A stretch of 44,315 bases of DNA from Trichomonas gallinae (Eukaryota), in assembly GCA_008369845.1 (NCBI GenBank), contig MRSU01011690.1, forward strand, positions 1 to 44,315. The letters run 5' to 3'. The translations under genes and the position numbers were made by a program. This document shows, in pieces, positions 781 to 39,700 of the stretch (the first letter of the stretch is position 1; the number at the start of each line of letters is the position of its first letter). The notes beneath the pieces are model-generated. The model saw only the letters and a list, made by a program, of their open reading frames with translations, had not been told where the DNA came from and made no database searches.

Positions 781-1683
781 ATGGATATTGAAGAAGTCAA
801 CTGGTCTGATGAATTGGATGGTGAGAATTTTGAGCTCCCATTAGATAACACACATGTGCATGGCTGCCATTGGAAGTGCAAAGATGGAGAAGCGCAGTAT
901 GTACTATTGTTTTTGCATGGTTTGTGCTCTACTGTTGGATTTAACGCGAATTTATTGCGTGAAATCCCCAATCACTGTGGTTCTGCGCTTGCCACGGACC
1001 ACATTGGATCCGGTCACTCACCTGGATCCAAATCACATACATCAATAGACCAAATATGCAGAGAAACAACAGAATTGATTAAGTATACTACATCTTTGTA
1101 TCCAAATACACCGATTTTCTTGTTCGGGCATTCACTTGGAGGCCTCGCTGCCTGTAAATTTACGCTTATGCATTCGCCTGAGGTTGATAAACTAGCAGGT
1201 CTCATTTTGCATGCTCCATGGTTGGAAACAACTGGTGGATTGAAGCAATCATTCGTTTTGAAAACATTTTTGAGTATTGCTTCATTCGTTTGCCCAAGAT
1301 TGCAGCTGAATACAGGATTGGATGTCACCAAATCTGTATATCACGATAGATATAAAGAGACTGTCCTTAACTCACCTCACATAAATAAAGCGATCACGCC
1401 TGTCCTACTCAAATCCGTGTTTGAAGCGATGAATTATATCAAGTCGAATACGCATAATTTCCCGAAAGGACTTCCTTTATTGTTCATGCAAGGAATGCTC
1501 GATAATCTCGTGAATCCCATCAATAATGTCGCATGGGCTGAATCAGTACAGAATATTAATGGCGATGATATTGTTTCTATTGCAAAATTCGAAGACGGTC
1601 CCCATGATATCACAAAATTCAAAACGAGGAAAGAAGCCCTCGAAAAAATGTTCGGATTCATCAATCATATCATTGCGAAATAA
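781..1683 (+). CDS. Alpha/beta hydrolase, monoglyceride lipase/lysophospholipase-like (Hydrolase_4)
   Basis: 300-aa ORF with LFLHGL oxyanion segment, DHIGSGHS, nucleophile elbow GHSLGG, QGMLDNLV (Asp) and GPHDI (His), giving a complete triad. Confidence 0.9.
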   Translation: MDIEEVNWSDELDGENFELPLDNTHVHGCHWKCKDGEAQYVLLFLHGLCSTVGFNANLLREIPNHCGSALATDHIGSGHSPGSKSHTSIDQICRETTELIKYTTSLYPNTPIFLFGHSLGGLAACKFTLMHSPEVDKLAGLILHAPWLETTGGLKQSFVLKTFLSIASFVCPRLQLNTGLDVTKSVYHDRYKETVLNSPHINKAITPVLLKSVFEAMNYIKSNTHNFPKGLPLLFMQGMLDNLVNPINNVAWAESVQNINGDDIVSIAKFEDGPHDITKFKTRKEALEKMFGFINHIIAK

Positions 1684-3841: not shown

Positions 3842-5599
3842 ATGAAGATCGAGATTGTCTTTGTTTCCCACAGAACGAATGACACAGAACCATGCTTCAT
3901 TATCAATGCAGAGGACTGCTCGTATATCTTCAATGTTCCAGATGGCTCGCAAAGAGTCTTCATGGAGAAAAAATATAAAGTTTCAAAGATAAAGAGTGTT
4001 TTTCTTTCAAGTAATGATGAAAACTCGACTGGAGGTCTCCTTGGAATGATTTTTACAATGCTTTGCGTTGAAAATTTTGTTCCACCAAAGATTTGCGGCC
4101 CAGATTGCATAAAAGATCAATTAATGACTAACATTGCATATAAAAATGCACCAGAACTTCTTCCAGAAATATTAGAATCTTATCAAGATGAGTTTATCGA
4201 AGTGAATAGAATTCAGTTATCGAAAACAGTAGCTTTTGATATCAAAATGTGCGATTATCCAGGCAAATTTATGCCAAACAAAGCCAAACAGCTTGGAATT
4301 CCTGCTGGTCCATTATTCAAAAAATTAGTTGCAGGAGAATCAATAACTCTTGATGATGGACGTGTAATACAGGCATCGGATTGTGTAGGGGAATCAACAC
4401 CAGGTGATAATTTACTTGTTATCGATGCAAGATCGATTGATGACTTAAAATGCATTGAAATTACGAAATATAATACTGTCATTCATCTATCGAGTAATGA
4501 TTTGCTTGTTAATAATGATTATGTTCAGTTTTTCTCGAATATCAAAAATAATTTTGCATTTTGCACGAATAACTCAGTAGTTTACAAGACTGTCTATGAC
4601 AAGTACCAAGAATGCTCACAGTTGTATCCAGAATTTCTCAAGCCTTTATCATCATCAATGAATTCATTTAATCTTCCAAATCTTTACACAGTTGTATCAG
4701 AATCAGACATATACACAATTGCACCTCTAGACAAGAAGAAACTATATCCAGCAAAGAAGACAAGCTGCGATGAAGTAAATGGTGAATATCCACAATTTGA
4801 AACTTTCGGAGTAACTTTTCTTGGCACCGGAGCTCGACAACCACTTAAAATGCGCAATGTAACAGGCATTGTCGTTCACACGAAGTCAGGTGTTATTGCT
4901 GTAGATCCAGGAGAGGATTATGTTGGACAGCTGAGGAGAAAATACGGTCGCGAAGTTGCAGAAAGATTAATGAAAGAAGTCAAAATGATATTCATCACGC
5001 ATATACATGGCGACCATAACTATGGCGTCCATAAACTGTTGTCCGAGAGATCGAAGGTATCAGATGAAGAAATAATATTGCAAGCTGATCAAGATTTGAT
5101 TGATGAAATTAAGTTTTTCGAAAAAGGCAGAAAATTTAATATAAAATATGTAAATAGAGAAGTTAACTCAGTTAATGTTGGAAATAATGTAGTACACAGC
5201 ATCCCAACATCTCATTGCCCAGGTTCTCATGCTATACTAATAGATATAGATGGAAAATACAGATTTTCATTCACAGGAGATAAGAATCAAAAAGATGAGT
5301 TTATTTCCACTGTCGGAAATTGCGATTTTCTCGTCCACGAAGCAACATATGATGATGACAAAGCTGAAAAAGCAGACAGCGTTGGACACAGCACAATAGG
5401 CGAAGCTGTTGCTGCAGGCAAGAAACTCGGCGCAAAAACAGCTTTGACTCACATTTCAGGTAGATACTCGAAAGGATTGAGTTCGCCTGATAGCGAATGC
5501 TTCTTTGTGTTCGATTATCTTTTTGTTCCTTTCGAGAAAATCAACGAAATCAATGCTGTTTGCGATAAGATGAACTCATTACTAAGCTCTGAGGAATAA
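3842..5599 (+). CDS. ELAC2: tRNase Z long form (ELAC2/Trz1-like metallo-beta-lactamase)
   Basis: N-terminal pseudo-domain (YIFNVPDGSQR) and exosite/flexible arm PGKF..KAKQLGIPAGPLFKKLVAGESITL. C-terminal half has FLGTG..P..RN, THIHGDH (HxHxDH), FTGD, HEAT, GHST and LTHISGRY motifs. Confidence 0.93.
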   Translation: MKIEIVFVSHRTNDTEPCFIINAEDCSYIFNVPDGSQRVFMEKKYKVSKIKSVFLSSNDENSTGGLLGMIFTMLCVENFVPPKICGPDCIKDQLMTNIAYKNAPELLPEILESYQDEFIEVNRIQLSKTVAFDIKMCDYPGKFMPNKAKQLGIPAGPLFKKLVAGESITLDDGRVIQASDCVGESTPGDNLLVIDARSIDDLKCIEITKYNTVIHLSSNDLLVNNDYVQFFSNIKNNFAFCTNNSVVYKTVYDKYQECSQLYPEFLKPLSSSMNSFNLPNLYTVVSESDIYTIAPLDKKKLYPAKKTSCDEVNGEYPQFETFGVTFLGTGARQPLKMRNVTGIVVHTKSGVIAVDPGEDYVGQLRRKYGREVAERLMKEVKMIFITHIHGDHNYGVHKLLSERSKVSDEEIILQADQDLIDEIKFFEKGRKFNIKYVNREVNSVNVGNNVVHSIPTSHCPGSHAILIDIDGKYRFSFTGDKNQKDEFISTVGNCDFLVHEATYDDDKAEKADSVGHSTIGEAVAAGKKLGAKTALTHISGRYSKGLSSPDSECFFVFDYLFVPFEKINEINAVCDKMNSLLSSEE

Positions 5600-20330: not shown

Positions 20331-23102
20331 TCCGTTTATAACAAAAAGTTTTCCAAAACTTTTTTCCTCAAAAAAATATATTATGTTGTAATTTTCAAGC
20401 CATATGTAGAGTGCTTGCTTGTTTTTGTAAATAGATTTTGTTTTTACCTGACAAGTATTTAAAGGTTAGCATATATACAGCGGTACTACTCACATATTTT
20501 TTGATATATTGTGAAATCATTTTTAAAATTGAATATTTATGGATTATAAACAAGTGCAATCAATTTCTTGGAACTTGGTTGTGAATAAAATACTTTCAAA
20601 TATTTGAAATGATGAATATTTTTGTAATTAATTACAATTATTTTTTTTGCCAAAAATATTCTTTCAAAATATATAATTACCTTAATGATTTAAAGTGCAT
20701 ATTATACAATGCATTCAGTAGTATTAAAGACTACACCAAAAATGAAGTGTTTTTCTTGAAATTATTTATAAATCAGGAAGGAATGTATTATTTCCTTCAA
20801 GCGATAATGGTTGATGTAGACCTTGCGTATTTATATATACGAGCAATTCTCAATAATACAGGTATTTTTCGATATAAATCAGTGATTGGAATTTCCGTAA
20901 AATCGAATTGTTACATGTGTTGGAAATAGCATACTCTAGGAGTATGAAGGTTTAAACGCCTGGGAAACTCTTTTGAACCAAAAGCCTCTTTAATAGGGTA
21001 GATATATTGGGAGATTCAAAATATTTGAATATCAAAGAATATTCACAACATTTTAACGTAGTTGTTTTCGAAATGTTGGGAAACGCAAAAATGTAATTTT
21101 CCGCAAAATAAACATATTTTTCCAGCAATATAAGGTACAACGAGCATATAAGATGAAAAATTAGTTTTGATATGCTTTCAAATTTCTTCTTTACAAATTT
21201 ACTGAAATATTTTGTTCTGAATTTCAAAACCTGTTCCAAATCATTCTACTGCATTATAAGGACCAGCTGTCGTCGAAAAGTTACAAAAATTTCAATGCTA
21301 AAATCTTTTGAGTTTGTGAGGTGTTTCAAATGCATTCAAATCACATATAGTTTGCTTCTTTTAGCTCTTTTTGGGTTCATGTAATTCCCTGTACCATGAA
21401 GTCGTCATATCAAATGAGATTTTTTATTTCGCGCCTTTTGCATACGTTATTTTTTTAACTTCTCTCTCATTATCATTTTTCAAATTTATTCTCACATGAC
21501 AGAAGTCATCATCATGTTGATAAAACGCTATAAAACGTTTCATAAAATAATTTGCTGACAATAGCCCAGCAAACCACTAATATGAAAAATAGAATAAAAA
21601 TAAATATCTACTGACAAAATCTTATGATTTTGTTAATATACTTTCATGAATAGTTCTCAAAATGCATTTGAATTTTTCCTTTTGAATATGCCTATATCAT
21701 TTTTCAATACCCAAAAGTTCTCATGCGATAAGCTATATTTAGAGAGCATTTTAAGCCAGAAATGCTGTGATTATTTTTTGAATGCTTTAACAAAATATTG
21801 CCTTCTCAATAAATAAAACGTCAACAGAAAATAAGCAGTGGTGTTTTCAAATTTTTTATTTCGAATTTTATTAGTTAATGATTTATAATGTATAAATAGC
21901 ATTTTTCATATTCATAAAATCAGACAAATTAATTTTCAAAATTGAAGCTTAATTTTATTATGTTTCCAACACATATGATGGTTCCAGTAGTTTAATCTAA
22001 TAAAATTTCATTTTACGCCTTTCGGACTCAATTTTTGAATTTTTATTTTTATCTTATTTTATCAGTATATTTATTGTTTACATTGTATTAATGAGTATTC
22101 AAACGCAGAAATAATCAAATACTGTGCGATTTTTAAAATCGAGAATTTGGGAAATCGGATATATCTATATTTGGACACACATACATTGTTTTCTAGTAAT
22201 TTCAATTTTGTTACCGATAGTATTTTTGGCAATGGCAATGATTTTTTTGATAACCGATTTTAATTGGACTCAAAAATCTGTTCGTCATTGATAAATCTAT
22301 TTATTAGGACCCAATTAACTAATTTCCTGTTGAGTTTAAGTCACATTTCGATTGCAAACAATTGCCAGAAAAAAGATTCGTCAAAAAATCTCACACACAG
22401 CCTGAAAAGATATATAACCATCAGAGATACTGTCAATATATCCTGTTATTTGATTATTTTCCTCTTGAAGTTCGTAGAAATATGGCAAGATGATAATTTT
22501 CACTGACTGTGAGAAAAACCCAACGAAAGCTAATATCTAAGTAGAATATATCTACTCCAAATACAATGAATAGCTGATTCTTGAAGTTTTTATTCCCTAA
22601 AACAACAAATCTGCTTTTTTATTTGACAAGTTAACTCAAAGCAGCAAAATCATCACAAGCATTAATATTAAAACTACGCTATAAAAGGCTATTAAGAATC
22701 TAAAAAGATTGAGCTTGATTGCATCATAAACTTGAAAATTATTGATGAATAAAAATATGGATATATAGACAAAAGAAACTAGTCTTATTTACTAAGATCA
22801 TTAACTTAGTTTTGACATTATCATCTGTTCTTATCAACAAAAATATCAACTTATAAAATGAGATATTTTTTTTTCAACGAACAAATTCATTTAAATATTG
22901 TTCGGAATGGAGCTATTATTGGATGAAAAAGTACACTGCATCTATAAGTATACATATAAATGCATGTTTCTCACATAGTTAATAGTCACAACTCTTGATA
23001 ATAATAGACCAAAAACGATTTTTTAGAATGCATGAAAATAAGGTTTATTAATAAAAAAGATAGAAGGATACATGTTTAAAGCATACAAATAAGTGAAATA
23101 AA

Positions 23103-23606
23103 TCAATTATAGTATGTGTAGCGCTGTTTGACGATTGGATTGGAGGTCATCTTGCCGTTGGTCTCACACATGAATGGCATCGATCCATTCTCGCATAAGT
23201 GGACTGAAATCTTGACTTTCACGTTATAATATTTGTTGTTTGGTGTCTGAAGATAAAACTCCTGAGTTGTCATTTTATTGGACTCAAAAGCGGACAATCT
23301 CAGTTCTACTTCACCAATGATCTCATTACCACCAAAGTTTTTCTTTTTCAGCAATGAAATTACAAATGATGAAGTATTGACATTATTATACTGGAAATCC
23401 CAGACATTTGTAGGTGCTGACTTGATAATAAACTCTTCTGGATGGAGCTTAACGCTTGTTCTTGGTCCGACACCTATGATAAATTTTGTGTCTTGCTTCA
23501 CTGGAACATCGCCCGGCTGCACAGCCTCAACGCGGACGTAGGCTGTATTGACAGGGATACCGGAGAACCTACTGTTGTTCATGGCCATGTTTCTGTTAAA
23601 CATCAT
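23103..23606 (-). CDS. C2-domain-like hypothetical protein (paralog A)
   Basis: 167 aa that aligns without gaps to 24782..25285. SSFVISLLKKKNFGGNEIIGEVELRL resembles the C-terminal C2 strands. Confidence 0.8.
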   Translation of the reverse strand: MMFNRNMAMNNSRFSGIPVNTAYVRVEAVQPGDVPVKQDTKFIIGVGPRTSVKLHPEEFIIKSAPTNVWDFQYNNVNTSSFVISLLKKKNFGGNEIIGEVELRLSAFESNKMTTQEFYLQTPNNKYYNVKVKISVHLCENGSMPFMCETNGKMTSNPIVKQRYTYYN

Positions 23607-24781: not shown

Positions 24782-25285
24782 ATGTTCAACAACAACACAT
24801 CATTGTACGATGACAACAATTATGCTATCAAGGAAGGTAACCGTGCATTCATTAGAATCGATTCAGTACATACAGGAACTTATCCTATCAAATCTAAATC
24901 CACACTTATTGCACATGTTGGTCCAAGAACAAGTTTCATGAATCATACAAGTGAATTTGGTCTCAATGAAGCTCCTCTTGATACATGGGACTTCTCCTAC
25001 AAGAATGCACAAAATTCATCTTTTGTTATTGCCATTTTCAAAAAGAGGCTCTTTGGTGGTGATGAAGAGATTGGGGAGATTGAGCTCAAGCTTGGTTCTT
25101 TTGAGAAAAACAAAGTCGTTTCAGAAACATTCGAACTCCAAACACCACGCAACAGATATTTCAATGTCAAGGTCAATGTTTCTGTTCACCTTTGCGAGGA
25201 TGAAGGTTTCCCATTCTGTGCAGACGGAAATGGAAAACTTCTCTCAAATCCAGTTATCCACCACCAGACAACATATTTCAACTAA
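24782..25285 (+). CDS. C2-domain-like hypothetical protein (paralog B)
   Basis: 167 aa sharing VGPRTS, WDF.Y.N, SSFVI, FGG.E.IGE.EL, LQTP.N.Y.NVKV..SVHLCE and NGK..SNP with paralog A. Confidence 0.8.
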   Translation: MFNNNTSLYDDNNYAIKEGNRAFIRIDSVHTGTYPIKSKSTLIAHVGPRTSFMNHTSEFGLNEAPLDTWDFSYKNAQNSSFVIAIFKKRLFGGDEEIGEIELKLGSFEKNKVVSETFELQTPRNRYFNVKVNVSVHLCEDEGFPFCADGNGKLLSNPVIHHQTTYFN

Positions 25286-29611: not shown

Positions 29612-30735
29612 ACAAACTAATTGCGTTTTTCATGATTTTTTATTTCTTTTTTTGATACATTTGCATCAAACAGCAAATTGAGAAACAAGCATATCTTCCT
29701 ATTACAAGAAGATGTATATCAATGACTATAGAAATGACATTAAAATCACTTCGACCATATAAATGTTGCCTTTTTGGAACACAGAAATGCTTTCAGGCCG
29801 CATTCTTATGACCAATACACGAGTCACCCCTATACTCATCGATTAGCTAAAATAGAATATTAGTACACCTCTTTACAGGAAGCTTTGCAACCAAAAAATA
29901 ATACGCGTATGAATATATAAATATAGATTATTCGAACATTTACCAAAAGCATTAAAACTCAAAAAATAAGTATTTCTTTCATATTACAAGGAACGTTGAA
30001 TCTCAAAATTATATTTGATCAGCGATAATATCTAACTATTATGCATGTAGATTATACATCGACTACATAACTATTCTATGCTTCGTATTGCCAAGATTAT
30101 CGATTTTTATGTTAGATGAAAAAAAGAAGAGCTCCACAATGAATTTTAAAACAAAATTTTAGGGTATTATTCTATAGATTGTGAGGATACTACATCACAA
30201 CATATCTTCAAGGATAAAAAGATTTGTCGGATAAAGAAAATGTAAGAACTTAAAGTGTCAAAAAATATTTGTCGAGACTGTTCGTTTTAGAGAATTTCTT
30301 TGTATTTCATTACTTAGATCGATCATAAACCGAATGCATAAGTAATCGGAAGACTAAATATTTATGTAAATTATTCTCTCACAAATATTTGAATGAGATT
30401 GAACAAAAATGCATTCAAAAAGTTCTACATAGTATAAAGATATTAACAAACACCAGCATAAACTTTCTACGAATTTTGAATAAACAAAAATCTTTTCCAT
30501 TGTAAAATAATTAATCAAAAATAAACTTTAAATAGATGCATGGGTGTTATTTTAAAGCATTTTGAAATTCAATGTTCTAAAAAAAAGTTATTGAAAATTG
30601 TAATGTAAATCATATGACTATAACTTTAAATAACCATTAATAGACTTATTTTCTAATGTTTTATTATCGTCCATTTATTCAAAATTTTCTGCAACCGAAA
30701 ATATCCCACAAATAGATATTATTTTCTCGTAGAAC

Positions 30736-31011: not shown

Positions 31012-32942
31012 GAGGTTTGCTTTTTGTTAGAGATGTATTTGTTTATTATTTGTTAGTAAATTAGTCTGTATGAAATCGGCAACTTGCGATGAAATTTATC
31101 AATTTATTTTCCCATCTACCTTTTGAGCTTATATTTCATCGAGTGCGATAATACACCATTGTAAGCATAGATAAAACTCAGTAATTGATCAGTGAAACCC
31201 TTATTTAACGATAAATAAAAATTCCCGGCATATGTTTCATCGAAGAAAGTTTTAATTTCCTTTAATATAACGATGCAGGATTGTCTCCACAGCACAAATT
31301 TCAAATACCCACGGATGTTTCTATTCTCCCCTGTCTTTTTGAAACAGCCCCTATTTATTTTCTCGATGTATATGACATTTTTTACATTTACATGTCAGAA
31401 AAATATTTAGGGGCAAAATATTATAAAAAGGGGAAATATTCATTCGTTTCATTTCATTCCCGAATATCCTTTACACAGCTTTCACTCATATTGACAACAG
31501 ATCCTTGAATATACACAAGCATATTATATCATTTCATGTGCTTATTTGATCAAATATTCTATTAATGAATTTTCCATTGCCTTAATAAAAGCTCGTATAA
31601 TCATCTAACGAATAAATTAACACTAGTACCTTTGAATCCCTCCTTTTTTAACTTCATATCCGATGCAAATTTCGTTCATTTATTTCTTCATTTGATCATA
31701 TCGACTCCAAGTATGTTTCACTTATTACATGATTCATATAATCCAAATTCCAAACGAAGGGAAAATCCAGTTGCTAATGAAAATATTATGATTTCTTCTA
31801 AATTAGAGTTTATCGATCATTTGTAATGTATTGCAATTACATGGGCTAATCTAATCAAATTGACTTACTGTTAGGGCTGAAGAACAAAAAAATTATTTTA
31901 ATCGGGATTATTATGCAATCCAGCTCGAATCAGCCGCTATTTACGGCTGATTGTTTCTTTGTACTTCTTAGTCTTTACCTGGAATTAGAAATTAATAAGA
32001 AATTTTTGAATTTTGAAATGGTATTTTTTTAAATTTAAGTCAAACAACCTAAATTACAAACAAAAATAATAGAAAATAAAGGAATAAATTAGAATATTAC
32101 TACAATATCGCCTGATGCCAGTGTGACTATGTGCATTTGTATCAGTAATCTTAGCAATCTTCGATATTGATCTTCGCGATTGACCAGTGGCTTTGGGGCA
32201 TTGTATCTAGCATTCATATCCGAGTAAACACTCTGTGAGAAACTCATTCTAGATTAATGATTCTATTTCAGAGTAAAATCATATTTACAATTTTTTCAAA
32301 GCTTTACGAAAATTTTTGTCACCTCACTTATAAAATAGTTTTATCTTAATAAATTATTAACTGAGAAAATATTTTTGTCTGAATAAAATCAAAATGGATT
32401 GAAAATTTATCACATTCAATTTTCACTTTAAATTTAGCTGTCGAATTCACAAAATTTTTATGTAATATTGGAAAATTATGCATAAAATCAATTTTTATGT
32501 TGTTTTCCAAAATTTTGAATTTTCCATAAATCTTTTTTGTTAAATTATCGAACTATATAATTTTAAATAGACAAAGGTTTGATTTTCCATTTATAAAATT
32601 TAATCCCATCGCTTGGTTGCAATTTGGATACAATCTAGTCATTGATGGCAAATTATCAGATAAATTTATCATACAGGCCGTATGGAAAGTATAAATTATA
32701 CCAATTATATGATAAAACTAGAATTTCGAAATCATATTTTAAATTTTATGGTAAAACAGCTATGTATTGTATCAGTAGGCTACACATGTTATAAAAACCC
32801 ATACGAAGTTTTAGTTTTAACTTCCTAATTTCAATTTTTTTCGCATTCTACAGTATTATAGCTTGAAACATTAAATATATATTTCATATTCGTAAATATT
32901 TATATTTCGCAGTATTTCAAGTATAAAAACAAAAAATATATT

Positions 32943-33521
32943 TCAGCAGCATTTCTTCTTTGGTTTCCAAGGATCGTTTTCTTTATTGGCCTTAATTTGA
33001 ATAGTTCCAGACTCTTTATCTACAACTTTAACCGGAATCCCCGAAATCGTTTCAAAAATCATATAAACTGAGTAGCCAGTTAATGCGCTACATTCAAGAT
33101 GTGTTACAGCACCAATATTTGTACTAAATCCAACACCTTCTTCGAGAGTTATCGCTCTGCTTTCAGTGATATCACATTTATTTGCAACCACTATTAAATG
33201 AATTGATGGGGCTTGATCTTTTATCAGTTTTACCCAGTCAGATAGTCCTTCAAATGAGCTACGGTCATTAACACTATAAACTAAAACTGCGAAAACGGCA
33301 TTTCTGATGTAATTCGGGGTTAAAGCTCTGTATTGCTCTTGTCCAGCAGTATCCCATATTTGGTACTCATATGTTTTTGATTCTGACTCGTAAGTGTAAT
33401 TTTGCATTGCAACACCAGTTGTCGAGACTTGATATTGATTAAATTCTCCAGTGACAATTCGCGTGATCAAAGAAGTTTTACCAACAGAAGCATTTCCAAC
33501 GAAAACAACTTTGATGCTCAT
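32943..33521 (-). CDS. Rab-family small GTPase
   Basis: GNASVGKTS, STTG, WDTAGQEQYRAL, ANKCD, ECSAL and C-terminal KKKCC. Confidence 0.95.
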   Translation of the reverse strand: MSIKVVFVGNASVGKTSLITRIVTGEFNQYQVSTTGVAMQNYTYESESKTYEYQIWDTAGQEQYRALTPNYIRNAVFAVLVYSVNDRSSFEGLSDWVKLIKDQAPSIHLIVVANKCDITESRAITLEEGVGFSTNIGAVTHLECSALTGYSVYMIFETISGIPVKVVDKESGTIQIKANKENDPWKPKKKCC

Positions 33522-34353
33522 AAATTGAAAAAATAAGAATCAATATCTTTTACACGTCAAAATTTTGTTTACAGAACATATTTTATCAGTCATTAAAATA
33601 TACCACAGTGCTCTAAAATTCACCCATTGTACAGCAAATTGGTACAATTTTTGTTGACAACTTTACATGTCATATTTTTTTACCAAGTGTGATCGTAAGT
33701 TCTTGCTCTAATGGAACAGAATCAGCACAATGAAACTATAGGTATTTTTACTGTAATATTGACAGAAATAATACCTCAGATTTCTAAGAACAAAAAAATA
33801 TTTTTTAGCAGCATTTCTTCCTTTTATCTTATTCCTTTCAAAAATTTTTCCTTCTGCAAAATGTTTTGTGAATACAATGAATGAAAAATACGTTGCATCT
33901 TTTTCAGAAAATTGCTCCACTCCTCTGAAAAAGTTGCAACATATTTTCTAAATATTATTTAAATAGAAGATTATACTTTGATCTATAATATAGACTGCTG
34001 TTAACTCTATCAATTTATATACACGCAGGACTTAACAGAAGGAAATCCATTTGTTTATGTTCATATTTAAATAGTTATTGTTTCAACCAAATATTAAAAT
34101 ATTTCTTGTGTTTTGGAATACAGGTTGAAATGAATCGAATATTACATGGCTGCCATGATATGAGCATCATAACTATTATGCGAACAAAGTTTTTTCTTTG
34201 ATGAAATTGGATTGACTGCATTATATATCTTGCTGCAGATCTTTTTGACATCACGATTATTGTCAAAATAGATAAGTAAAAAAAAAAAAAAAAGAATTAA
34301 GATTCACCCAAACACAACAGAAATTTGCTGTAGTTTTAAGGAAATATTAAAAA

Positions 34354-35256
34354 AAAATCGATAATTCCGCATGTTAGAGCTTCTGGTGAAATGATTATCC
34401 TATCCCATTCTAAAACAAAAAAGGATCTACAAACTGGCCATAAGATATACCTCAGAAGTTCGATTTCAAAAGGCAACTTCACTGGCCAAACCACAGCAGA
34501 TGAGTCACACACATCCCGAGCACACGACGGCTGGATGGTGACTGGTGCTCTTCAAACCAAAATTTACACCGAAGTCAATTGTGATGAGTGTTGCACCACT
34601 GCTGGAGCTCCAACTGAGATCATGAAGTTGGAGAATAATAATAGCAATTTATCTGCCACAGTCGGCAATGCTATTATAATGCGTTCAAATAGCTGCGCAC
34701 AAGTCAAACAAATAGCAGTGCGCTGCATATGTACATGCAGTTTGATGAAACGGATTTGTTGACCTGCAGCTAATTTCGAACAAATTTTTATAATACCAAT
34801 TCCGAAGTTGGATTATAAAATCTTTCGATGCCAATCTCTGATTGACACCGAGAATACCCATGTGAGAGGGATTAATCTAAACAATTAATAGAACTTAAAG
34901 AGTGTTAGACGCGTCTTCTGCACATTGCTAATATGGTAACGAAGCTGCTCGTTGTTCTGAGCAATGCTAGTTTGGCAAGCAGACACCTGACATTAGCATT
35001 GCTCCTGAGGCAATGAAGCAGTCATCACACGTGGATATTGCAAGTTTTGCAGACGCCGATCTGTAAAACAACGGGGTGCTGATTCTCTGCTTAGCAACAC
35101 CGCTGCTGGGTTTTTGTATACAACCCAGTAATACAGAGAGTAACCAAATTTCACAAGGGAAAAATAAGATTTGCAGGGGACTGCAAATCTGCTGTGAATG
35201 GAATCCAAATCTTCTCAAACCCTAACTCATTCTCAGGAAAATGGAATTACGATTTT
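34354..35256 (+). ncRNA. Candidate large (~900 nt) structured RNA of unknown family
   Basis: More than a dozen nested helices found by eye, pairing of the two ends, and G-U pairs that work on the + strand. No family motif recognised and no evidence of expression. Confidence 0.55.
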
Positions 35257-35270
35257 GAAAATAAAAATGA

Positions 35271-35816
35271 TTAAAATTCAATGAATGAGGAGTCCCAGAA
35301 ATCCGTAAATGTGAACTCAATTCCTGGCTCAGATTCTGGGCATAAATCGTTTGTCTGGGGCTGAAATTCCATATCTCCATATTCAAGTCCAGAGAGATCC
35401 CTTCGTTTACAACGGCCTTTAAACAATCCTTTGATTGTTCCCGATTTCCTAACTTCAAGTCCCAAGGGATTATCATCATCATTCTTTAGTGGGCCAGAGA
35501 AGATAATCCGCTTGTTTCTTTCGCGCACATACCTATCATCAGAAGGTAGATAGTCTTTGAATACATCCCAATTATTATTGACAAATAATATTGATGCTTT
35601 TAAACTCCTATAAATGTCGGGATTTGCCACAACTTGGGGGTTCTTATCACAAGTACGCTTAATTAAAGACTTAATCTCGGTGTGTTTCCAATTTTGTTCT
35701 ATAATCAAAAGTTTGTAGGCCGTAAGTGTGTTGATATCGATGCTTTCCTGTGCCAGCTTTGCCCGTTTCCGCTGCACTTGCTGGCGCTTATTGTATATCG
35801 AGTTTCTCTTTTCCAT
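35271..35816 (-). CDS. Hypothetical protein, possibly a divergent relative of 19893..20330
   Basis: 181-aa ORF with basic N-terminus and acidic/aromatic C-terminus. DIYRSLKASILFVNNNWDVFKDYL parallels LARRNRQALLCWFAENWDKVKPII. Confidence 0.65.
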   Translation of the reverse strand: MEKRNSIYNKRQQVQRKRAKLAQESIDINTLTAYKLLIIEQNWKHTEIKSLIKRTCDKNPQVVANPDIYRSLKASILFVNNNWDVFKDYLPSDDRYVRERNKRIIFSGPLKNDDDNPLGLEVRKSGTIKGLFKGRCKRRDLSGLEYGDMEFQPQTNDLCPESEPGIEFTFTDFWDSSFIEF

Positions 35817-36712
35817 AGGATGTCCTATCTAGGAGTCAGAAGGGATTCTATTTTTTTTTTCATATAAACCAGGTATTGAATTTTTGAATTTCAGTTGTTT
35901 GGTCAGATCTCTCAATTTTTTAAAAGAATTTTTTTGTCATTTTGATAACATGTTTTATTGAAATTATCATTTTTAATATTCTTTATTATTTATTAATCAT
36001 TAAATTTTTAACATGGTTTATCTACATTTACATATAAACCATTTCATGTTTCAAAGACTAAAATTTTTTATTTACATAAACAATGTTGGATATTTATAGC
36101 ATTGGCTTCACTGTTATCATTTATTTAGCTAATTTTTCACTTTTGTGAAGTGTTAGATTATCATAAAAATTGATTTCCACTCTTACAAGCATGCCAACAC
36201 ATTCCATTGACATTTTCTAAAAAATCATTAAATCGTCGATAATCAATAAATTGAAATCATCAAAATTTTATTGCTTTATTTCAACCAAATCATGAAGTCA
36301 ATCTTATCATTACCATTCTCATTAGCAACCTAAATCCTTCAATATTCCATCAAATAAATGAAGGAAATTCCATTCTTTATAAATGATTTCCTCGATTCAA
36401 TATTTAATTTTCTTTCTAAAATCATTTCAATTTTGTATCCATTTAACATTGTATGAAATTAATATCAAAATGATAATTCAATCACCCATTATATTTTATG
36501 GAAATCGAATATCAAATTTAATCTTTGAACATTCTCATCTTAATTCACATTGAAAATTTCATAGATCATGCAAATATATCCAATGATATATCTTTTGTGT
36601 CTTAATTTTATGATTTTTCAATTCAATTAAAAAAGAATCAGAGAAATTAGAAAGCGATTTCTAAAACGAAATAAACTATTTATAAACAATATAAAAAGAT
36701 AAAAAATAAATA

Positions 36713-39700
36713 TTAAATCAAATTAGGGAAAGGAATAAAACGAATAGAATCAGTTGAGACGATGATGAATGATTCGCATCCCATGTTATAAGTGATAGCT
36801 TGGATATTTTCTTTTGTTTCATAAAATGTTGTCGACTTGTCTGGATACAAAGCGTGGAAATATGAAATCTGATGGTCAGAAGTAACATAAGCAATCAAAT
36901 CCTGTCCTAAATGTTCGAAAGCGTACAAACCTTGAATTTGTCTGCTCATCTCTGCTTCTCTGATGATTTCTCCGTTGATGGTCATAACAATTATCTTCGT
37001 TGACGTTGCAGCAACAATGTAGCCGTAATTCCTTGTGATAATCAAGAACTCTGGCTCGCCTTGTATATTTACCCTGTTGACAAATGTTCCATGCCTATTA
37101 AGAGCGTGAACGGAAATATTTCCATCAATTGTCCCATAAGCGAAAATTCTGAATCTCGGTGACGCGCAAAGAGCAGATATCTTGCAAGAGCTCAGTGTCA
37201 AAACACTTGGCTTTGCGTCTTTCTTGTATTCTTCGACAATAGATATTGTGCAGAAATCAGGGCAGAATAAGAAAGAATTCTCACAGTAAACGAAAATATT
37301 CGTTTCGCAGAACAATGTAAATGTTCCAATAAGTTTTGAGTCCTTATAAACAACAGCTGTCTTCTTTTCTGGTGTATAAATGACGCATCCGCACTGATTA
37401 TAAGCGAATGAAGTATTCGGAGTGATATCAATTGTTTCGTTTGCCATGTGACTTGATATTTTGATGTCTTGGTCGAATATTCCGCAAGAGAATGACGAGT
37501 AAGTTCCATTCGATAAAACAAAACCTAAAGTATACTTGTGGTGGAAATCGTTTAAGTCTGTGTTAATTGCTGCGAATACAATTCTCGATGTTTGTGTAGA
37601 TAACTGGCGTCTGATCATTTTAGTTAATGGAGCAGCAATTGAGATTTTCGGTGGATGTGATTTCATAAATAATTGTTTGTGCTTCTGCTTCTTCATGTTG
37701 CAGCCGAAATTATAATCAATCCACGACAAAACAATCTTTTGAATTGATGGAGTGTCAAGCATTTTACGAATAATCGCGATGAATTCGTATCTATCTTTGG
37801 CCCACGATGGAACTGTTCCTGGGACGGTTGAATCGAAGTAAATTCTTGCGTTAACATTCTTCTTCTTGCAAAGAGAATCAATTGTGATATCATCATTGCA
37901 TTCAACAACTTTAGAGAAATCGAAGATGCAGCCATTAATATTAATATCACTCAACAATGGTGGGAAAATCGGTTGCATGTCTGGCGAATTGAAGCTTCTT
38001 CCAGAGAATATGTTCATGTACATGATATACTCGAATGTTGTTATAACCTGGTTCTGCCATAGATGAGTGAAAGGAAGATTAAGGAAGAAATCTTTTTGCT
38101 TCGGCGGTGGAGAAATGAACTTAAATCCAGGCAACATATTCTTGGGGAAGAATTTTAGGAGCATTTGTGTGTCAGAGATTGGGAAATTCATCAGATATGA
38201 TCTACCGTCGTTCATATAAATCTCGAGATAATTAGGACGAGTGAATAAATAACCGATCATGTCAAACATGAGCTCTTTGCTTGTAACTTGCGTAATGATA
38301 AACGCTCGATCTCTGTAGATCCTGAAATCAGCTGGACTTGAAATTTTCTCTGAAACCAAGTTAACTTTAAATGCTTGTATTGCATCAGGAAGCGGCAAGA
38401 ATTGCTTGACCTGCTTCTCTTGGTTCAAAATCTTCTTCTTGAATGGGCAGAAAGCGTAGCAATATGCTCTGTCTCTCGTGTATGTCTGTTTGTTTGGAAT
38501 TAAGTTGCACATGTCTTGAAGAGAAATCTCAAACTCGTTTGCAATGATGTCATTCGATTCCATTGCGTATGATTGTCTGAATCTGTCGTTAATATATTTG
38601 TGGAAATCTTCCTGACTTTCTAATGTTATCCTGAGTTGCTCTAAAATACCTGAAACGACATCTCTGTAATTATGTTGATGATCAGCTAAACTTTTCTCGA
38701 AGAAATACAAAGAATTCGCCATGAATTGTTGGCGACTTTCGTTTGGAAGATTTTGATTTTTCGTGATCGACATCATAGGAATTAAATACTTCGAATCATG
38801 CTTAAACAAATCATATGTATTCGAACAAATCATTGCTTCTTCAACGAACATCATGTCAAGGAACTTGCATTCTTTGTTTGTTCTTGCTTCATAGTAAAGA
38901 AGAATGTTATTTGGATCAATTTTTGAAAGTTTTTCTAAATGTTCTAAATTGGACAATTCAAGCATCAGAATTGATTTCGTTGAATAAGGCATGAAATCTG
39001 GATCGTTAAATGGAGACTTAACCATTTCAGCTATCAGCGCTTCGTTGTGGCTTCTAAAGCAAGAATGGAAGAAGAAAGAAGAAAATGTTGCGTAAACAAC
39101 AGCAGAATCCAATTCATTGTTGACGCTCATAACTGTGTAGAAACTTGTCTTGATGAACATTATCATCAATTTAGATGTTGGCGGCGATAAAACATCATAA
39201 AGGAATCTGATGAAATAATAAACTTTGTAAAACTCAACAACAGGCTTTGCCATTTTAGGTATTACCTGGCAAATATACAAAATTATAAAGTTCGCGTGGT
39301 CTTCGTGTATATTATAAGCCATGATTAAAGGCCAGACAAACCAATCTGGGCAATAAAACGATTTGTCGCTTTTTAGAGACAATGAAATCTTTGGAGCGAA
39401 TAATTCCATGTATTGGGAGCCAAAATGAATCGCAATTAAGCATAATAATGTCATCAATCCTGGAAAATGTAATAGATTTTCGGAGAAATACTCGAAAACA
39501 TTTTTCTTGTTTTCTTCACTGAGATCCAAGTATATCTGGTAAGAATATTCACTAATATTTTGGTATCCAATCATGTTTATGGTGATAATCGAATTTTTGA
39601 CGATTTCAAAATCTTTATCTTTGACGAGACTTTCTATTAATCCTATATATCTATGCTCGATCAAATTAAGATTTAACAGTGGCTTTGTGATCTCTTGTAT

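What the first reader, a model, noticed from the sequence alone, without database searches (positions are those of the whole stretch)
34354..35256. ~900-nt island folded end to end: candidate undescribed large structured RNA
Seen: a relatively GC-rich island between a Rab and a convergent gene is tiled by helices. The ends pair (AAAATCG-a-TAATTCC 34354-68 with GGAATTACGATTTT 35243-56, 14 bp with one bulge). A long-range perfect 10-bp helix CACAGCAGAT 34492-501/ATCTGCTGTG 35187-96 competes for ATCT with the last hairpin. Local helices: GAGCTTCTG 34377-85/CAGAAGTTC 34453-61; AGTCAC+CATCC 34503-16/GGATG+GTGACT 34533-43; CTCCAACT 34608-15/AGTTGGAG 34626-33; ATAATAGCA 34638-46/TGCTATTAT 34669-77 with inner TGCC/GGCA; a long interrupted arm 34683-34713/34754-34781 capped by small hairpins; TTTTATAAT-a-CCAATT/AGTTGG-ATTATAAAA 34786-34820; TGCCAA/TTGGCA 34829/34972 enclosing TTGACAC/GTGTTAG and CATTGCT/AGCAATG; CATTGC/GCAATG 34997-35015; GTTTTGCAGA/TCTGTAAAAC 35044-69; TGCTGGGTT/AACCCAGTA 35104-30; AGATTTGCAG-GGGA-CTGCAAATCT 35167-90 with a GNRA tetraloop. 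Non-Watson-Crick pairs in these stems are G-U on the + strand and would be C-A on the - strand, which favours a + strand RNA over DNA cruciforms. Inference: a selected multi-arm RNA, too long for SRP, RNase P/MRP, U3 or snRNAs and lacking their motifs. Internal T5 runs argue against Pol III transcription.
Basis: partly seen in the sequence, partly recalled or inferred. Interest (0 to 1): 0.9.

Follow-up and report, generated by a model that had tools for sequence, protein, structure and literature searches.

The report
Candidate trichomonad telomerase RNA, tail template
A 900-base non-coding stretch of a Trichomonas-like genome is predicted to fold unusually well and carries a telomere-template-like word in a predicted open loop near its end, so it may be this group's unidentified telomerase RNA, but expression and any link to telomerase are untested.

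Summary
Several listed helices exclude each other, so the drawn structure is not established. There is no Rfam match. The host is a trichomonad (RNase Z 67% identical to T. vaginalis). A relative about 90% identical keeps the island between the same genes.

It is the only such 9-mer in 44 kb (28 of 5000 shuffles on the + strand) and ends the longest predicted single-stranded stretch, inside the terminal helix and before an Sm-like site. The best reading is a telomerase RNA (about 40%) whose template lies at the 3' end, unlike described ones.

Against: no triple-helix pseudoknot and no clear boundary helix; the trichomonad telomere repeat and TERT were not confirmed; there are no expression or covariation data; with seven repeat types allowed, chance gives such a word in 12% of shuffles.

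The parts
34354..35256 (+). candidate structured RNA gene; ends inferred from the terminal helix, strand likely +
   Evidence: syntenic in a relative
34354..34368 (+). 5' strand of terminal helix (predicted core-enclosing helix)
   Evidence: pair probability 0.91-1.00
35243..35256 (+). 3' strand of terminal helix
35218..35226 (+). AACCCTAAC, 1.5 copies of the complement of TTAGGG: candidate template (3' AAC would align, 5' AACCCT would be copied)
   Evidence: only such 9-mer in the window on either strand; mean unpaired probability 0.86
35202..35226 (+). longest predicted single-stranded stretch of the island (25 nt), ending with the candidate template
34492..34501 (+). 5' strand of perfect 10-bp long-range helix with 35187-35196; would close a 690-nt multi-arm domain 5' of the template
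   Evidence: probability 0.11; forcing it costs 2.2 kcal/mol
35167..35196 (+). GNRA hairpin 35167-35190 and the overlapping 3' strand of the long-range helix; candidate template-boundary region
   Evidence: most of the hairpin's span up to 35181 is not alignable in the relative
34377..34488 (+). 5' domain: stems 34377-86/34452-61 and 34435-40/34483-88 could cross as an H-type pseudoknot, without U-rich/A-rich triple-helix strands
34503..35130 (+). array of local helices, including the unlisted 11-bp helix 34959-69/34994-35004
35251..35258 (+). GATTTTGA, Sm-site-like word overlapping the terminal helix; weak, as the pattern occurs 41 times on the + strand of the window
   Evidence: consensus recalled
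32943..33521 (-). flanking Rab-family GTPase gene (divergent)
35271..35816 (-). flanking 181-aa orphan gene (convergent), stop codon 14 nt from the island's end

Best explanation
The island is likely the gene for this trichomonad's telomerase RNA, a roughly 900-nt RNA predicted to come from the + strand and to be closed by a 14-bp terminal helix, with the word AACCCUAAC predicted to lie single-stranded 30 nt from its 3' end, where it would serve as template. Inferred mechanism: the telomere's 3' end (..GTT) would pair with the 3' AAC, TERT would copy the six bases 5' of it to add AGGGTT, stop at a boundary set by an upstream helix, and realign, giving (TTAGGG)n; reading one base further would give TTTAGGG. 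The terminal helix would act as the core-enclosing helix. The 690-nt helix array 5' of the template would be a scaffold and hold any CR4/5-equivalent, so the order would be the reverse of described telomerase RNAs. Shown: helices, folding excess, the word and its rarity, synteny in one relative. Inferred: transcription, strand, ends, the fold itself, TERT binding, templating.
For: Folding excess ranks first of 49 tiles on both strands. The 9-mer is the only one in 44,315 nt on either strand; it occurs in 28 of 5000 shuffles on the + strand and 42 of 5000 on either. It is among the 1.7% least paired 9-mers, ends the longest open stretch, and stays open under both alternative folds (0.86, 0.87). 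It lies on the strand favoured by G-U interruptions (7 of 200 shuffles). Templates for TTAGGG are typically 1.5-2 repeats (PMC4993307), and TTAGGG is the repeat in two other metamonads (PMC6759080; PMC11316075). T. brucei TR is about 1000 nt, has no pseudoknot and its post-template helix is dispensable (PMC5175330), so a missing pseudoknot is not fatal. A yeast TR with its ends moved between template and pseudoknot still works in vivo (PMC7685517). One contig of a relative spans the island between the same genes at ordinary depth. Telomerase RNAs of distant lineages are not expected to match Rfam models (own knowledge).
Against: Described TRs mostly have the core in the 5' half and the activating domain distal (PMC8643685); here the template is 30 nt from the inferred 3' end. 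No U-rich/A-rich triple-helix pseudoknot was found. The nearest strong upstream helix ends 21 nt before the template, and a nearer one (34462-68/35199-205) has probability 0.01-0.10. In the predicted ensemble a helix closes right behind the template (35192-200/35228-36, p 0.66). No CR4/5-like element was identified. I noticed the word after looking; allowing seven repeat types on both strands, 595 of 5000 shuffles hold one. The trichomonad telomere repeat and a trichomonad TERT were not confirmed in the texts or supplements searched, and metamonad repeats vary (TAGGG in Giardia, TATATGGTCT in Barthelona). Whether the relative keeps the template letter for letter is not known: its piece is aligned, but the base-level rows for the island were not shown.
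Confidence: 0.4

Rival explanations
1. A + strand structured non-coding RNA of another, undescribed kind, in which the telomere-like word is chance.
For: Folding excess; no Rfam match; synteny with few indels in two aligned pieces (1 gap letter in 452 against 13 in 310 intergenic); atypical template position; 12% chance of some template-like word when seven repeat types are allowed.
Against: The word matches the commonest eukaryotic repeat, is unique in the window and sits at the end of the longest open stretch. The indel contrast is biased: the first piece has 17 gap letters in 201, and 213 nt were unalignable.
Confidence: 0.32
2. A structured RNA of the - strand, such as an unusually long 3' extension of the convergent orphan gene.
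For: The - strand folds with z -4.78 and has more confident pairs (180 against 160). The orphan's stop codon is 14 nt from the island.
Against: The local folding excess is larger on + (-48.5 against -38.0); interrupted stems favour G-U on +; trichomonad 3' UTRs are short (recalled).
Confidence: 0.08
3. A relic of a mobile element or an endogenised viral or satellite RNA, with the paired ends as terminal inverted repeats or a panhandle.
For: 14-bp complementary ends; GC above the surroundings; internally repeated CATTGC/GCAATG words; three stretches unalignable in a close relative.
Against: No flanking target-site duplication is visible. Depth over the island in the relative's run is 12-32, while a neighbouring small hairpin repeat shows 945 (a weak measure by the tool's own warning). 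The same site is occupied in the relative. The ORF has no viral relative in IMG/VR.
Confidence: 0.12
4. A small protein-coding gene (ORF 34391-34762, 123 aa) with incidental folding, or a plain chance outlier.
For: A stop-free stretch of 135 codons occurs in only 36 of 1000 shuffles. Two of the three replaced stretches in the relative change length by multiples of three (+6, +36, +2). 150-nt tiles are not exceptional.
Against: No homologue by word search, although that search found the relative's copy of the neighbouring gene; no Pfam family. The five HMMER hits are sums of weak matches to tandem-repeat proteins (best single match 13 bits). The ORF covers under half of the island, and the +36 change lies outside it.
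Confidence: 0.08

Closest known systems
Trypanosoma brucei telomerase RNA (PMC5175330 and PMC8643685, passages read)
   Same: Size near 1 kb; single-stranded template for TTAGGG inside a helix-closed core; no triple-helix pseudoknot.
   Different: T. brucei has an 11-nt template in the 5' half, a template-adjacent Helix II, a distal 3' eCR4/5 and a box C/D end (C/D: PMC11206666). Here the word is 9 nt and at the 3' end, the bulk of the RNA lies 5' of it, and no D box lies near the 3' end.
Saccharomyces TLC1 and its engineered circular permutant cpJ3 (PMC7685517, passages read)
   Same: Long arms around a small core; cpJ3 has its ends between template and pseudoknot, as this island would if the 5' domain is a pseudoknot. 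A 3' Sm site is known for fungal TRs (PMC11206666).
   Different: cpJ3 is artificial; TLC1 has a pseudoknot with base triples, which was not found here; the Sm-like word here overlaps a helix.
Trichomonas RNase P, RNase MRP, snRNAs and snoRNAs (listed in PMC3268645, passages read)
   Same: Structured RNAs of the same lineage; terminal pairing.
   Different: No Rfam match at E up to 10; no CR-I motif of P or MRP and no U17 motifs (recalled patterns).

Membership tests
telomerase RNA | single-stranded template of 1.5-2 telomere repeats with an alignment region | tested here: met
   AACCCTAAC at 35218-26, predicted unpaired 0.86; 28 of 5000 shuffles; met for TTAGGG, by prediction only
telomerase RNA | template matches the organism's own telomere repeat | tested here: inconclusive
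   no genome held; repeat not stated in the texts or supplements searched
telomerase RNA | core-enclosing helix | tested here: inconclusive
   the 14-bp terminal helix (p 0.91-1.0) encloses the template, but no covariation data
telomerase RNA | template-boundary element just 5' of the template | tested here: inconclusive
   strong helices end 21-27 nt upstream; a helix 12 nt upstream has probability 0.01-0.10
telomerase RNA | pseudoknot with base triples 3' of the template (absent in trypanosomes) | tested here: not met
   only 16 nt lie between template and terminal helix; the best crossing stems are in the 5' domain and lack U/A-rich strands; not universal per PMC5175330
telomerase RNA | second TERT-bound domain (CR4/5 or equivalent) | not testable with these tools
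   no sequence signature outside vertebrates and fungi; needs reconstitution
telomerase RNA | expressed, bound by TERT, directs repeat synthesis | not testable with these tools
   no RNA holder listed; bench tests needed
RNase P / MRP RNA | CR-I and CR-V forming P4; Rfam match | tested here: not met
   no Rfam hit; no CR-I; two loose CR-V-like matches far from the 3' end
box C/D or H/ACA snoRNA (U3, U17 types) | terminal C and D boxes, or U17 m1/m2 motifs | tested here: not met
   the one C box is internal (34581), last + strand CTGA at 35079; no m1/m2
MITE / DNA transposon | terminal inverted repeats, target-site duplication, many copies | tested here: inconclusive
   complementary ends present; no duplication visible; ordinary depth in the relative; own genome not held

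The most novel reading that the evidence does not exclude
The first telomerase RNA from a parabasalid (and, in the papers searched, from any metamonad), built as a natural rearrangement: template at the 3' end, with the scaffold and any pseudoknot or CR4/5-equivalent placed 5' of it, the layout so far made only by engineering yeast telomerase RNA.
Probability: 0.3. Interest if true: 0.85.

Novelty: new variant of a known kind. Interest (0 to 1): 0.62.

Why it matters
I found no report of a trichomonad telomerase RNA in six of my searches, and a 2024 review says the Giardia RNA is still unknown (PMC10999387); subscription papers are largely outside this library. A concrete candidate makes telomerase in this branch directly testable and gives an entry point for finding the RNA in T. 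vaginalis and T. foetus by synteny. A 3'-terminal template would be a natural case of the connectivity rule found by engineering yeast telomerase RNA. If it is not telomerase RNA, it remains an unassigned 900-nt folded element in a lineage with few known long RNAs.

Tried and rejected
Rfam scan of 33500-36200 at E up to 10: 7 weak matches, all far below gathering scores. Whole genome not held. Sequencing-run search: one DNA holder, no RNA holder listed, which says nothing on expression. Neighbour-gene locus search in metagenomes gave one locus, L001, a bacterial contig with a chance peptide match and no template word: dropped. ORF 34391-34762: no homologue; 5 HMMER hits rejected as summed repeat matches. 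Full-span folding control timed out and was replaced by a 120-nt-span control. The pseudoknot shuffle test (0 of 300 reach the observed value) is driven by one 10-bp stem and was not counted as support. The strand-neutral G-U test partly excludes G-U helices by design, so I report it but weight more. Atlas search of the orphan neighbour: scores 0.76, uninformative. Earlier findings: none by sequence, place or trichomonad words; the 8 telomerase-RNA candidates shown are from other genomes and were not used. Supplements: no telomere repeat or TERT entry found; the T. foetus table was cut when stored and one file of PMC3622300 was not searched, so these blanks are not absence. PMC5855555 does not mention Trichomonas; PMC2588526 added nothing. 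Base-level differences of the relative inside the island were not obtained, so covariation and template identity stay open.

Full report
Setting. The window is gene-dense, AT-rich eukaryotic DNA. Its RNase Z is 67% identical to the Trichomonas vaginalis G3 protein over 69% of its length, so the host is a trichomonad; no whole genome is held. The island lies between a divergent Rab gene (32943-33521, -) and a convergent 181-aa orphan (35271-35816, -), followed by a BEACH-domain gene.

Observation. All 13 helix pairs checked are at the stated places. The 903 nt fold at -259.9 kcal/mol on + (z -4.23) and -279.8 on - (z -4.78), 20 shuffles each. Among 49 tiles of the same length, folded with a 120-nt span and 6 shuffles each, the island has the largest excess on both strands (-48.5 and -38.0; next -26.1) and the highest GC; its edges were chosen to fit, the other tiles' were not. 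The signal is diffuse: 150-nt tiles in the island reach only z -2.65 on +, and perfect stems of 8 bp or more number 11 against 6.3 in 100 shuffles.

A perfect 11-bp helix it missed (34959-69/34994-35004, p 0.99) excludes three listed helices. The long-range 10-bp helix has probability 0.11 against 0.78 for the GNRA hairpin, though forcing it costs only 2.2 kcal/mol. For strand, singly interrupted stems show 4 G-T and 1 A-C of 18 (7 of 200 shuffles; the rest of the window has 128 and 146). A strand-neutral count showed 0 G-T and 3 A-C of 5, and the - strand has more confident pairs. The + strand is likely, not shown.

Known families and coding. Rfam gives 7 weak matches at E up to 10, none near a gathering score. 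RNase P/MRP CR-I, U17 and SRP patterns (recalled) are absent, and C/D boxes are not terminal. The 123-aa ORF has no homologue; five HMMER hits are summed matches to repeat proteins. A stop-free run that long occurs in 36 of 1000 shuffles, so coding is unlikely but not excluded.

Relative. One public DNA run, X1, holds a relative. A single contig of it covers 34316-37498 in order. In the island it aligns in four pieces: 34316-34516 (13 substitutions, 17 gap letters), 34607-34853 (22, 1), 34905-35109 (26, 0), and 35182 onward (49, 5 to 35959). Three stretches are replaced by unalignable letters (90 by 96, 51 by 87, 72 by 74). Substitution rates in the middle pieces equal the intergenic rate (p 0.49); gaps there are rarer (1 of 452 against 13 of 310), but that contrast is biased by which pieces aligned. 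Depth over the island is 12-32, against 945 at a nearby hairpin repeat, a weak hint of single copy. The terminal helix strands, the long-range helix strands and the template word all lie in aligned pieces, but the table showed 40 of 323 differences, none in the island, so covariation and template identity are untested. The aligned piece starts at 35182, leaving out the 5' arm of the GNRA hairpin, a slight hint for the long-range helix.

The missed feature. AACCCTAAC at 35218-35226 is 1.5 copies of the complement of TTAGGG and the only such 9-mer in 44,315 nt on either strand. It occurs in 28 of 5000 shuffles on + and 42 on either strand; with seven repeat types on both strands allowed, 595 of 5000. 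It ends the longest predicted open stretch (35202-35226), ranks in the top 1.7% of 9-mers for being unpaired, and stays open in both alternative folds. The overlapping AAACCCTAA would fit TTTAGGG. An Sm-like word follows at 35251-58, but that pattern occurs 41 times on the + strand.

Mechanism (inferred). TERT would hold the RNA by the helix-closed core, pair the telomere end ..GTT with AAC and copy six bases to add AGGGTT per cycle. Two layouts fit. In the first, the terminal helix is the core-enclosing helix, the 690-nt array is a large arm on the 5' side of the template, and there is no pseudoknot, as in T. brucei, where none was found and the post-template helix is dispensable (PMC5175330). 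In the second, the crossing stems 34377-86/34452-61 and 34435-40/34483-88 form a pseudoknot at the 5' end, giving a natural version of the yeast permutant cpJ3, which works in vivo with its ends between template and pseudoknot (PMC7685517). In both, any activating domain lies 5' of the template, whereas described TRs mostly have the core in the 5' half and that domain distal (PMC8643685; PMC4993307).

Weaknesses. There are no triple-helix strands; the boundary helix is unclear; a predicted helix abuts the template's 3' side (p 0.66); the word was noticed after looking. TTAGGG is reported in Monocercomonoides and a Skoliomonas, but Giardia and Barthelona differ. In 2013 nothing was known of T. 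vaginalis telomeres (PMC3622300); the two recent assemblies gave no repeat in the passages found (PMC12289875, PMC13735942); supplement searches found no repeat or TERT entry, with one table cut and one file unsearched.

What I saw of papers: term-search passages only, for PMC3622300, PMC7685517, PMC12289875, PMC13735942, PMC11316075, PMC10999387, PMC6759080, PMC11206666, PMC5175330, PMC4993307, PMC2588526, PMC3268645 and PMC8643685; PMC5855555 returned no passage; other papers only as listings. Searches for a trichomonad or metamonad telomerase RNA listed none; PMC10999387 says the Giardia RNA remains unknown.

Verdict. The folded island is real as a statistical feature. Telomerase RNA is the best single explanation (0.4), ahead of another undescribed structured RNA (0.32), a mobile or viral relic (0.12), a - strand RNA (0.08) and coding or chance (0.08). 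I file it as a candidate that would work like a telomerase RNA, not as a member: one usual feature (a 3' pseudoknot with triples) was not met and the decisive ones could not be tested. Interest 0.62.

Noticed in passing
window 33876-33965: A strong DNA/RNA hairpin (z -6.0 for 33870-33965) in the only bin with very high depth in run X1 (945 against about 25). The relative's syntenic contig lacks 33775-33949, so this is likely a small, recently inserted repeat (MITE-like).
   Followed up: partly
window 33785-33823: A near-copy (34 of 39 columns) of the Rab gene's stop region 32924-32961; the relative also joins to a copy of 32924-32970 here. Likely a remnant of a tandem Rab duplication.
   Followed up: partly
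window 35271-35816 (-): A 181-aa orphan gene with one homologue, 97% identical, in the relative; no Pfam family and no useful Atlas hit.
   Followed up: partly
window 23103-23606 (-) and 24782-25285 (+): Two divergently oriented 167-aa ORFs that look like paralogues by eye; not aligned or scanned.
   Followed up: no
window 901-1050, 5401-5550, 21451-21750, 29701-29850: 150-nt tiles with folding z of -4 to -6 on one or both strands (12 shuffles each); some lie in coding sequence.
   Followed up: no
window 34923-35019: Repeated CATTGC/GCAATG words (23-nt direct repeat at 34923 and 34997, 74% alike) allow mutually exclusive folds, which may be an internal duplication or a switch.
   Followed up: partly
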